Source of the DNA: Escherichia virus TH42 | DNA length: 64,000 bases | Reading direction: 5' to 3' (one strand) | Sequence record: MT446413.1 | In this document: positions 15,721 to 21,687 of the stretch, piece by piece | Layout: each line of letters begins with the position of its first letter | How positions within the stretch are numbered: position 1 is the stretch's first letter | The notes under the pieces: generated by a model | The model's database searches: none | What the model was told of the DNA's origin: nothing | Seen by the model: only the letters and a program-made list of their open reading frames with translations | Program-made: the position numbers and the translations under genes

Positions 15721-15740
15721 ACAACCTCTTCTTTGAACTT

Positions 15741-15765
15741 AAAAAAGGACTCTCCTAAGAGAGCC
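15741..15765 (-). terminator. intrinsic terminator (minus strand)
   Basis: Minus-strand RNA GGCTCTC-TTAG-GAGAGTCC followed by UUUUUU. Confidence 0.45.
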
Positions 15766-15904
15766 AAGCTTTAAGGCCAATTAAATAGATATCACCCAAT
15801 ATCTGTGGATAACCTGCTCTTAAAATATTCTATCCGACGGATGTTCGAGGACTATTCCTCTCCCTAGCATCGGCCCCATACGGGTAAGATTAAATTAAGT
15901 TTAG

Positions 15905-15956
15905 GTTAGTTGAGCCAGAATAGCTCACATAGCCCTCTGATACTCACAAGGGCTAT
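15905..15956 (-). repeat. conserved composite RNA element, copy 1 (8-bp hairpin + TCAACTAACC on minus strand)
   Basis: Plus: GGTTAGTTGAG...ATAGCCCT-ctgatactcaca-AGGGCTAT; immediately 3' of gene 15962..16210. Confidence 0.5.
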
Positions 15957-15961
15957 AGATG

Positions 15962-16210
15962 TTACTCTGTGGCTCCGTCAAAGCGAAGGATTGCTGTTGG
16001 AACAGGGATTACAACCATATCAAAATCTAAGCGGAAGAGGTGTCCTGTGCTCAGTTGAACTGCTGTTACAGGCTTAGCAATTCCTGAGACTTCTGCGGAA
16101 GGGATTCTGATAAAGAATTCTCCCGGATACTCAGGTGAATGAAACACTTCTCCCGCTGTCATATTTACCAACTTAATGTCGGGTACGGGTTGTTTATTTT
16201 CAATTTGCAT
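15962..16210 (-). CDS. small protein, PG(D/E)xF paralog family
   Basis: 82 aa; MTAGEVF...PGEFF and C-terminal VIPVP; followed by conserved hairpin element. Confidence 0.45.
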   Translation of the reverse strand: MQIENKQPVPDIKLVNMTAGEVFHSPEYPGEFFIRIPSAEVSGIAKPVTAVQLSTGHLFRLDFDMVVIPVPTAILRFDGATE

Positions 16211-16443
16211 TACAGACCCTTCTTGGCACGATCTTTGGCAGTTTTGCCAGTGCGGATACGATGGGAAACATTAACCAGCTCACCACCTTCGACGATAGTT
16301 ACGCTTTTGTTTTTCGCAATATCAAACACAGACTTCTCTGTTCCGCCTAGACGAATCTGACGCGGTTCACTTTGGGTCTGAGTTGACTTGGACTGGAACT
16401 GGAACGGCTGACGGATGGCATCAATTGCGCTAACTTTAGACAT
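16210..16443 (-). CDS. hypothetical protein
   Basis: 77 aa ORF in operon context. Confidence 0.4.
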   Translation of the reverse strand: MSKVSAIDAIRQPFQFQSKSTQTQSEPRQIRLGGTEKSVFDIAKNKSVTIVEGGELVNVSHRIRTGKTAKDRAKKGL

Positions 16444-16471: not shown

Positions 16472-16885
16472 TTAAACAACGAATTGGAACGCTTCGTATC
16501 CAAACTTATAAGAGAAGTCATGCTTGAATTTCACTACACGACCACGGTCACGGAAAGATTTCAGACGAGTGATGAACCCAGCCATCGGCTCAAGGTCAAT
16601 AGGGCTACGAATCTTCATAGCTACAGAGTGCAGCTTGAAGCGCTTACCAGTGCTACAGGCCATCATCACATACTCCATACGAGTAGTCCAGATGTTGAGC
16701 ACCATGCTTGTTTTCTCCGCTGACCAACCAGTCTTACGGGCGATTTCCTTATGGATGTTAAGCTCCAAAGGAAGAGGGAATTGCTTGTTGAATGAAGCCG
16801 GATAAAGTTTGACCAGAAGATCAATGTTTTCTTTATACGTGAGGTAGGCCAATTTTTTGCTTACGTTGGGGAATTTCCCAGCCAT
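16472..16885 (-). CDS. ProQ/FinO-like RNA-binding protein
   Basis: 137 aa; KKLAYLTYKENIDLLVKLYPASFNKQFPLPLELNIHKEI...NIWTTRMEYV parallels the ProQ N-terminal domain (FP-CF, PLKIGI, YT-x2-W-x-Y). Confidence 0.5.
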   Translation of the reverse strand: MAGKFPNVSKKLAYLTYKENIDLLVKLYPASFNKQFPLPLELNIHKEIARKTGWSAEKTSMVLNIWTTRMEYVMMACSTGKRFKLHSVAMKIRSPIDLEPMAGFITRLKSFRDRGRVVKFKHDFSYKFGYEAFQFVV

Positions 16886-16904
16886 TTTTGAAGCTCCAAA
16901 ACAG

Positions 16905-16962
16905 CGCCGAAAAGAGAGGCGTCATAGTAGCTAAAGGGAGGAGAGAAGAGGGCTTATTTACT
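16905..16962. repeat. ~45-nt direct repeat, copy 1
   Basis: GCGTCATAGTAG ... AGAGAAGAGG(G)CTTA-TTTACT shared with 23476-23522. Confidence 0.45.
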
Positions 16963-17070
16963 TGCCTTTTTCTGTCCGTTAATGTACCAGATAACTGAGC
17001 CATCAGGCTGTCGCTGACCAAAGCCTTTCAGGTTAACCATTTCTTCTTCAGAGTAGGCACGTTTTCTCAC
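16954..17070 (-). CDS. possible small protein (38 aa, GTG start)
   Basis: GTG preceded by AGGAG SD at 7 nt; followed by the 45-nt repeat; track ORF 16833..17021 in another frame judged less likely. Confidence 0.25.
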   Translation of the reverse strand: MRKRAYSEEEMVNLKGFGQRQPDGSVIWYINGQKKASK

Positions 17071-19248: not shown

Positions 19249-19327
<79 letters not shown>

Positions 19328-21235: not shown

Positions 21236-21627
21236 TCTTATTAATTATCCACCGTAAAACCAATCACCTTGACGTTTACGGATGTTAGTTGTCAGACGAA
21301 GCATGGCAGACTCAATCTTCAGAGCACCATTTGCTACTGCATCCATACGTTCAGGACGGTTCATACGCTTGGTTGACTTCTTCATAACGTTCTCTCTTTG
21401 TTAGTGGAGGCAGGATTGCCAGTTAATATAAAGGGAAGCCCTACACGTTAAGGCTTCCGCTTGTACAAACTGTCGAGAACTCTCTACCCCTAGATTGTTC
21501 TCTATCCCAAACCGATACATACCCCTACATATCGGAATGCCATTCGAAAATTAACAGGTTTTAGTCTATCACCGGATGTTTGAGACAAGTCTCGCCCTAG
21601 CGGTGAGCCATATGGCACTGAGATTAT

Positions 21628-21678
21628 GGTTAATTGAGGAACACCCTCACATAGCCCTCTGATAATCACAAGAGCTAT
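21628..21678 (-). repeat. conserved composite RNA element, copy 2
   Basis: Plus: GGTTAATTGAGG...ATAGCCCT-ctgataatcaca-AGAGCTAT; the G-to-A change keeps pairing only in the minus-strand RNA (U-G wobble); 3' of gene 21688..21912. Confidence 0.5.
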
Positions 21679-21687
21679 AAGTCGATG

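What the first reader, a model, noticed from the sequence alone, without database searches (positions are those of the whole stretch)
16472..16885. Phage-encoded ProQ/FinO-like RNA chaperone
Seen in sequence: the 137-aa protein parallels the ProQ N-terminal domain (hydrophobic LAYL start, FP-x-x-F, PLELNI, then NIWTTRMEYV matching the conserved YT-x2-W-x-Y segment). Established knowledge: ProQ/FinO proteins bind structured RNAs and 3' ends and modulate sRNA and mRNA stability. Inference: the phage may carry its own RNA chaperone to act on host sRNA networks or on its structured transcripts, such as the hairpin elements and tRNA-like RNAs nearby.
Basis: partly seen in the sequence, partly recalled or inferred. 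Interest (0 to 1): 0.55.

Follow-up and report, generated by a model that had tools for sequence, protein, structure and literature searches.

The report
Phage-encoded FinO-domain RNA-binding protein

The parts
16472..16885 (-). CDS (with stop codon) of the 137-aa FinO-domain protein, pI 10.0, net charge +13
   Evidence: ORF; Pfam PF04352 at 27.0 bits, equal to the cut-off; PHROG 18901 full length; dN/dS 0.078; charge; the only FinO-domain ORF in the window
16556..16858 (-). FinO domain proper, about residues 10-110: helices 10-27, 44-52, 56-66, 70-79, a beta-hairpin at 81-95, and helix 98-110. Contains Y72 and R82 (3'-end pocket), S55 (N-cap), T67 and R107, plus the deviant N43 and S60
16475..16555 (-). 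C-terminal extension, residues 111-137: a basic helix (114-128; R112, R114, R116, K119, K121, K127) and an aromatic tail, outside the canonical domain
   Evidence: Confidently modelled helix; partly conserved in the 7-11 and Erwinia phage homologs, including the EAF motif
16894..16897 (-). Shine-Dalgarno-like GGAG, 8 nt upstream of the ATG
   Evidence: Read directly from the sequence; SU7 annotates an RBS at the same place
16954..17070 (-). Upstream neighbour: 38-aa ORF (GTG start, AGGAG RBS), homolog of phi32_94. Marks the left edge of the indel that carries the FinO gene
   Evidence: phrog_14557 full length, E 1e-27; alignment to phiEco32
16210..16443 (-). Downstream neighbour: 77-aa ORF, homolog of phi32_93. 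Marks the right edge of the indel
   Evidence: phrog_6662; homology to phiEco32 resumes at its start codon
15748..15765 (-). Intrinsic terminator (7-bp stem, UUAG loop, U6 tail) that probably ends the transcription unit containing the FinO gene. It is a generic candidate ligand only
   Evidence: Terminator scan; SU7 annotates a terminator here; compensatory change in the stem

Best explanation
The gene encodes a minimal, divergent FinO-domain RNA-binding protein made early in infection. By analogy with RocC, ProQ, FinO and NMB1681, it most likely grips the base of a terminator-type hairpin together with its 3'-terminal nucleotide. The pocket would be formed by Y72, R82, T67 and the N43 turn, with the S55 helix N-cap contacting the stem phosphates. 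Binding RNA 3' ends this way would shield the bound transcripts (phage, and possibly host) from 3'-end decay by polyadenylation and exonucleases, or would promote RNA-RNA pairing. Shown here: homology, fold, conservation of the pocket residues, purifying selection, and accessory-gene status. Inferred: early expression (by synteny), RNA binding, the binding mode, and the targets. The usual basic stripe on helix 3 is absent (A56, S60, N64), so stem contacts must differ from ProQ. They may be supplied by the family-invariant R69 and the basic C-terminal helix.
Against: The Pfam score is exactly at threshold and covers only 74 of 109 model positions. Pairwise BLASTP against ProQ is not significant. 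The turn Gly described as universal (ProQ G37, where G37A is deleterious; RocC G52) is Asn here. The helix-3 Arg (ProQ R58, where R58A abolishes binding of all seven tested RNAs; RocC R75) is Ser here, and the K54 and R62 equivalents are Ala and Asn (PMC10168233, PMC9674577). No partner RNA was identified. The conserved structured element at the end of the operon also occurs in about 80 phages that lack the gene, and is absent from a complete FinO-bearing Erwinia phage genome. The gene is dispensable for the phage group, being found in 21 records against 108 that share the flanks. No expression or binding data exist.
Confidence: 0.6

Rival explanations
1. Competitor of host ProQ. The phage protein occupies the 3' ends normally bound by E. 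coli ProQ (or titrates the same RNAs). This would dismantle ProQ-dependent host regulation as part of host takeover, rather than stabilising phage RNAs.
For: The 3'-end pocket is the same as in ProQ. The gene sits in the early arm of mostly host-takeover genes (PMC8948821). ProQ-family proteins repress phages and other mobile elements according to the review PMC9977716.
Against: No data. The stem-contact surface differs from ProQ, so target overlap is uncertain. Most relatives infect the same host without the gene.
Confidence: 0.12
2. Dedicated matchmaker for one phage-encoded antisense RNA/mRNA pair, in the way FinO serves FinP-traJ and FopA serves Inc-repZ.
For: FinO-domain proteins on mobile elements typically have a single cis-encoded RNA partner (PMC7491321, PMC9977716). 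The early arm contains conserved structured non-coding elements.
Against: Those elements are present in phages lacking the gene and absent from other FinO-bearing phages. No convincing antisense promoter and terminator pair was seen around the gene. The KASIA phage paper likewise found no FinP-like partner (PMC8541194).
Confidence: 0.13
3. The FinO fold has been repurposed. With the essential helix-3 Arg and the turn Gly replaced, the protein no longer binds RNA in the canonical way and instead binds a protein or DNA.
For: N43 and S60 replace residues whose mutation abolishes RNA binding in ProQ and RocC (PMC10168233, PMC9674577). None of the three helix-3 stripe positions is basic.
Against: The Tyr/Arg pocket, N-cap Ser and conserved Thr are strictly maintained across a family that is otherwise only about 30% identical, which points to selection on the RNA 3'-end site. 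The protein has net charge +13. Asn, like Gly, readily adopts turn conformations (general structural knowledge). R58-equivalent loss is common in the whole phage subfamily, where only 8/43 are basic, which suggests a tolerated alternative binding solution.
Confidence: 0.13
4. Chance resemblance, and not a FinO domain at all.
For: The Pfam score sits on the threshold and BLASTP against ProQ is not significant.
Against: Every other line of evidence.
Confidence: 0.02

Closest known systems
Minimal ProQ of Neisseria meningitidis (NMB1681, PDB 3MW6)
   Different: About 19-25% identity. NMB1681 is chromosomal and a global RNA binder. The phage protein has Asn in place of the turn Gly, lacks the helix-3 Arg, and carries a distinct basic C-terminal helix.
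Legionella RocC FinO domain (PDB 7RGS/7RGT/7RGU, bound to the RocR terminator)
   Different: RocC G52 corresponds to N43, R75 to S60 and N115 to G103. RocC has a long C-terminal region and one dedicated sRNA partner. No partner is known here.
E. coli ProQ (the host's own FinO-domain protein, NTD PDB 5NB9)
   Same: Same domain: hhalign 98.9%, profile E 8.6e-9. Y70 and R80 are conserved.
   Different: About 20% identity and not significant by BLASTP, so this is not a recent capture of host proQ. There is no linker or Tudor-like C-terminal domain. The K54/R58/R62 stripe is replaced by A/S/N.
Plasmid FinO (1DVO) and FopA
   Different: No long N-terminal helix (FinO) or basic N-terminal domain (FopA). 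No FinP- or Inc-like antisense partner was found.
Phage FinO-domain proteins already in databases: SU7 gp91 (UniProt A0A8F3C9D8), Salmonella phage 7-11 G0X555, Erwinia Kolesnikvirus 'ProQ', Aeromonas LAh_8 'putative RNA chaperone', Shewanella KASIA_p031
   Same: Same family. The SU7 protein is a 96% identical ortholog, and the others are 28-37% identical. All are from virulent phages, and where described they lie in early regions (PMC8541194).
   Different: None has been characterised. The Suseptimavirus-type clade is the one with the Gly-to-Asn change. Other groups place the gene next to NAD-salvage genes, which the window lacks.

Membership tests
ProQ/FinO domain (Pfam PF04352) | Sequence matches the family HMM at or above the gathering threshold | tested here: met
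   27.0 bits against a cut-off of 27, E 4.5e-6. This is borderline for the protein alone. All 43 family members match, with a best E of 1e-26. hhalign against the ProQ NTD gives 98.9% probability.
ProQ/FinO domain (Pfam PF04352) | FinO fold: a helical domain with a beta-hairpin | tested here: met
ProQ/FinO domain (Pfam PF04352) | Tyr and Arg of the 3'-nucleotide pocket (ProQ Y70/R80; RocC Y87/R97) | tested here: met
   Y72 and R82 align to them, and each is conserved in 42/43 family members. Their role is described in PMC9674577 and PMC10168233.
ProQ/FinO domain (Pfam PF04352) | Helix N-cap Ser/Thr that contacts hairpin phosphates (ProQ S53; RocC S70) | tested here: met
   S55 aligns to it. 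The position is Ser or Thr in 31/43 family members.
ProQ/FinO domain (Pfam PF04352) | Near-universal Gly in the beta-turn that shapes the pocket (ProQ G37; RocC G52) | tested here: not met
   N43 in the window protein. Across the family the position is Gly 38, Asn 4, His 1. G37A is deleterious in ProQ (PMC10168233).
ProQ/FinO domain (Pfam PF04352) | Conserved Arg/Lys on the N-capped helix that contacts the RNA stem (ProQ R58; RocC R75, about 80% Arg in the family) | tested here: not met
   S60 in the window protein. Only 8/43 members of the phage subfamily are basic at this position.
ProQ/FinO domain (Pfam PF04352) | Binds structured RNA, specifically a terminator hairpin with a 3' tail | not testable with these tools
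   Requires EMSA, three-hybrid or CLIP experiments.
Enterobacterial ProQ proper | FinO N-terminal domain plus a basic linker plus a Tudor-like C-terminal domain (about 230 aa) | tested here: not met
   The protein is 137 aa. The only other Pfam match up to E 10 is a sub-threshold DUF7343 hit. The model shows one domain plus one extra helix.
FinO/FopA-type plasmid systems | A cis-encoded antisense RNA partner co-distributed with the protein | tested here: inconclusive
   No antisense unit was evident. The nearby conserved structured element is not co-distributed with FinO genes. No transcriptome data are available.
Minimal FinO-domain proteins (NMB1681 type) | [quoted passage not shown] | tested here: met
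   The domain spans about residues 10-110 of 137, followed by a 27-residue C-terminal helix and tail.

The most novel reading that the evidence does not exclude
A lytic-phage FinO-domain subfamily that has kept the RNA 3'-end pocket but rebuilt the stem-binding surface (no helix-3 arginine; invariant R69-x-E-Y; a basic C-terminal helix). It would act as an early host-takeover factor that caps the 3' ends of selected transcripts, protecting phage mRNAs from poly(A)-dependent decay or evicting host ProQ. This would be the first functional phage member of the family and would show a new way for the FinO domain to read RNA.
Probability: 0.3. Interest if true: 0.65.

Novelty: new member of a known kind. 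Interest (0 to 1): 0.4.

Why it matters
FinO-domain proteins (ProQ, FinO, RocC, FopA) are one of the main classes of bacterial RNA chaperones and have been studied only from chromosomes and plasmids. In the library searched, phage versions are mentioned only in genome papers, as rare and uncharacterised. A 137-aa, well-folding protein from a culturable E. coli phage group (the BASEL phages Bas87 and Bas88 carry 97% identical orthologs, and Bas86 belongs to the same group) would be a convenient model. It could address how a virulent phage handles RNA 3' ends. It could also show how a FinO domain binds RNA without the arginine that is essential in ProQ and RocC. The domain assignment itself is already in UniProt, so the value lies in the residue-level divergence and the tractable host, not in the discovery of the domain.

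Tried and rejected
(1) phmmer of the single protein against PDB sequences gave only chance hits to a mannosidase, E about 1.2; the family profile was needed. (2) NCBIfam gave nothing meaningful. PHROGs gave only 'unknown function' families. PADLOC gave nothing for the protein or its neighbours. (3) The word-indexed homolog search with the single protein found only the near-identical cluster. The exhaustive search and the profile search were needed. (4) Pairwise BLASTP against E. coli ProQ was not significant. (5) All neighbouring genes are of unknown function, so there is no guilt-by-association. (6) Cognate-RNA hypothesis: the conserved structured element at 15722-15961 was tested as a partner. 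It occurs in about 100 phiEco32-like phages, most of which lack the gene. A covariance model of it found nothing in a complete FinO-bearing Erwinia phage genome or at the other FinO loci. It is rejected as a specific partner, though it remains a generic possible ligand. (7) NAD-salvage linkage: Prs and NadV flank the homologs in other phages, but a tblastn with one such Prs (the L012 gene) found nothing in the window. (8) The DnaA-box 9-mer in the element occurs at chance frequency.

Full report
THE OBSERVATION. The quoted motifs are present (LAYL 12-15, PLELNI 39-44, NIWTTRMEYV 64-73). The one inaccuracy is 'FP-x-x-F': the segment that aligns to ProQ's FPHCF is YPASF (28-32). Against the SU7 ortholog there are 15 synonymous and 5 non-synonymous differences, giving dN/dS 0.078, so this is a translated gene under purifying selection.

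WHERE THE WINDOW COMES FROM. The window is from a phiEco32-like E. coli podophage of the Gordonclarkvirinae, closest to Bas88, ECBP2 and SU7 (Suseptimavirus type; 92-96% nucleotide identity). In every close GenBank record the gene is 'hypothetical protein'.

IS IT A FINO DOMAIN? SEQUENCE EVIDENCE. On its own the protein hits Pfam ProQ/FinO (PF04352) at 27.0 bits, exactly the gathering cut-off, with E 4.5e-6, covering residues 18-87. NCBIfam gives nothing, PHROGs gives only families of unknown function, and phmmer against PDB sequences gives only chance hits. BLASTP against the E. coli ProQ N-terminal domain is not significant. Taken alone the case would be borderline, but the family context settles it.
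- tblastn finds homologs at 28-37% identity in Salmonella 7-11-like, Erwinia Kolesnikvirus, Aeromonas and other phages.
- These homologs score 37-69 bits on PF04352.
- An exhaustive HMMER search of 1.84 billion representatives returns 42 relatives, and all 43 sequences including the query match PF04352, with a best E of 1e-26.
- A six-sequence profile hits every solved FinO-domain protein by sequence: ProQ-NTD 5NB9 at 8.6e-9, RocC 7RGS/T/U at about 2e-7, NMB1681, 6S10 and FinO 1DVO.
- hhalign of the 43-member family against the ProQ N-terminal domain gives 98.9% probability, E 1.5e-17, over 92 columns at 20% identity.

RESIDUE-LEVEL TEST. The RocC-RocR crystal structure defines the binding mode (PMC9674577). 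The 3'-terminal nucleotide sits in a pocket built from Tyr87, Arg97 and a beta-turn stabilised by the near-universal Gly52. Three consecutive stem phosphates are read by a helix N-cap (Ser70) helped by Arg75. In E. coli ProQ, R58, Y70 and R80 are essential for all seven RNAs tested, G37 is universally conserved, and K54 and R62 contribute moderately (PMC10168233).

The mapping by MAFFT and hhalign is as follows.
- Conserved: Y72 = Y70/Y87 and R82 = R80/R97, each present in 42/43 family members. S55 = the N-cap Ser. T67 = T65/T82. R107 = RocC K119.
- Not conserved: N43 replaces the Gly (family counts: Gly 38, Asn 4, His 1). S60 replaces R58/R75 (only 8/43 family members are basic there). A56 and N64 replace K54 and R62.

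The window protein therefore has no basic residue at any of the three helix-3 stripe positions. It is nevertheless very basic overall (pI 10.0, net +13). It shares a family-invariant R69-x-E71-Y72 signature (R69 = RocC R84) and carries an extra basic C-terminal helix. My reading, which is inference, is that the 3'-end pocket is under selection and so recognition of RNA 3' ends is retained, while the stem contacts are made differently from ProQ. The alternative, that the fold has been repurposed, cannot be excluded computationally.

GENOMIC SETTING. The gene lies in the leftward-transcribed arm of small ORFs. Late structural genes run rightward from about 32 kb. In phiEco32 and SU10 the corresponding arm is the sigma70-dependent early cluster, described as the most variable part of the genome and probably devoted to host takeover (PMC4281155; PMC8948821). 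Early expression here is therefore inferred from synteny, not shown.

The gene is a clean presence/absence polymorphism. Homology to phiEco32 runs through the 38-aa ORF (phi32_94 homolog) and about 65 nt beyond it. It resumes at the start codon of the 77-aa ORF (phi32_93 homolog). About 440 nt containing the FinO gene are missing from phiEco32. Only 21 phage records carry an ortholog at 90% identity or more, whereas 108 share the flanking DNA, and KBNP1711 lacks it. The gene is accessory. At 20% identity it is not a recent capture of host proQ. No second FinO-domain ORF exists in the window. All neighbours are of unknown function and none matches defence-system models.

SEARCH FOR A PARTNER RNA. 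FinO-domain proteins on mobile elements usually serve a cis-encoded RNA (PMC7491321). The three-gene block ends in about 240 nt of non-coding sequence (15722-15961, minus strand) closed by a strong terminator at 15748-15765. This stretch is conserved at 84% or more in about 100 phiEco32-like phages. It is still 70% identical in 7-11-like Salmonella phages, where it is also intergenic. Its consensus fold has 61 pairs, 12 of them with compensatory double changes. No Rfam family matches.

A covariance model of the element finds a second, shorter paralog at 21536-21683 (-), 56.6 bits, again just after a gene end, with compensatory stem changes and identical loop sequences. However, the element is present in most phages that lack the FinO gene. 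It is absent from a complete FinO-bearing Erwinia phage genome and from the other FinO loci scanned. It is therefore not a co-inherited partner, and at most it is one of many possible hairpin-plus-U-tail ligands.

WHAT IS KNOWN. UniProt already names the SU7 ortholog (96% identical) and the 7-11 and Aeromonas homologs 'ProQ/FinO domain-containing protein', and some GenBank records say 'RNA chaperone ProQ'. [quoted passage not shown] The Shewanella phage KASIA paper notes that such genes are rare in phages, that its gene lies in the early region, and that no FinP-like partner was seen (PMC8541194). No paper in the searched library links ProQ with the Kuravirus/Gordonclarkvirinae group, the SU7 genome paper does not mention the gene, and I found no experimental study of any phage FinO-domain protein.

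VERDICT. The protein is a new, divergent member of a known family. The domain call is already in automated databases, and function and targets are unknown. The most likely mechanism is binding of terminator-type RNA 3' ends early in infection (confidence about 0.6). The alternatives are competition with host ProQ, a dedicated matchmaker role, or a repurposed fold. Interest is moderate. The surprising part is not the domain itself but the loss of the 'essential' arginine and the 'universal' glycine alongside strict retention of the 3'-end pocket, in a small protein from a tractable E. coli phage.

Noticed in passing
window 15722-15961 (-) and 21536-21683 (-): Two paralogous copies of a structured non-coding element, each placed just after a gene end in the early arm. 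The longer copy is conserved at 84% or more in about 100 phiEco32-like phages and at about 70% in 7-11-like Salmonella phages. Twelve of its 61 predicted pairs show compensatory changes, and it ends in a hairpin plus U6 terminator. The loop sequences GCUAGGG.GAG, AACAUCC and AUAGA are shared by both copies. No Rfam family matches. It may be an intergenic processing or stabiliser element or an sRNA. This is untested, and it may be more novel than the protein.
   Followed up: partly
window 15804-15812 (-): A perfect TTATCCACA (the DnaA-box consensus, from my own knowledge) lies in an invariant, predicted-unpaired part of that element in all six phages aligned. As a single 9-mer it occurs at chance frequency in the window: 51 of 100 shuffles give at least one.
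   Followed up: partly
window 16954-17070 (-): A 38-aa ORF (GTG start, AGGAG RBS) matches phrog_14557 over its full length (E 1e-27) and is the homolog of phi32_94. It is not annotated in the SU7 record.
   Followed up: partly
window 19249-19327 (-): A tRNA-like gene found by Rfam (36.4 bits) but missed by ARAGORN. It has a UCU (Arg) anticodon loop and good acceptor and T arms, but an atypical D-arm and a long extra arm. It differs from the canonical tRNA-Arg(UCU) at the syntenic place in SU7.
   Followed up: partly
L002 (7-11), L003 and L005 (Erwinia phages), L012 (metagenome contig): In other phage groups the FinO-like gene repeatedly sits beside NAD-salvage genes: ribose-phosphate pyrophosphokinase and nicotinamide phosphoribosyltransferase. 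A tblastn with the L012 Prs gene found no homolog in the window. This may reflect an inherited module rather than a functional link.
   Followed up: partly
window 16860-16885 (-) compared with L008 about 520-560 (phiEco32): The first ~25 nt of the FinO-like ORF, including the palindrome GGGAAATTCCCC, align to a hairpin (GCGTAGGGAATTCCCTCTACGC followed by a T-run) in the phi32_94-phi32_93 spacer of phiEco32. The indel boundary therefore seems to lie inside the 5' end of the ORF. The direction of the event (gain or loss) is not resolved.
   Followed up: no
BFVD hits G0X575 (Salmonella phage 7-11) and K4F7Y7 (Cronobacter phage GAP52): Phage 7-11 appears to encode a second protein with a FinO-like fold (125 aa, 'uncharacterized', Foldseek E 2.6e-6) in addition to G0X555. 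GAP52 has one as well. The window has only one.
   Followed up: no
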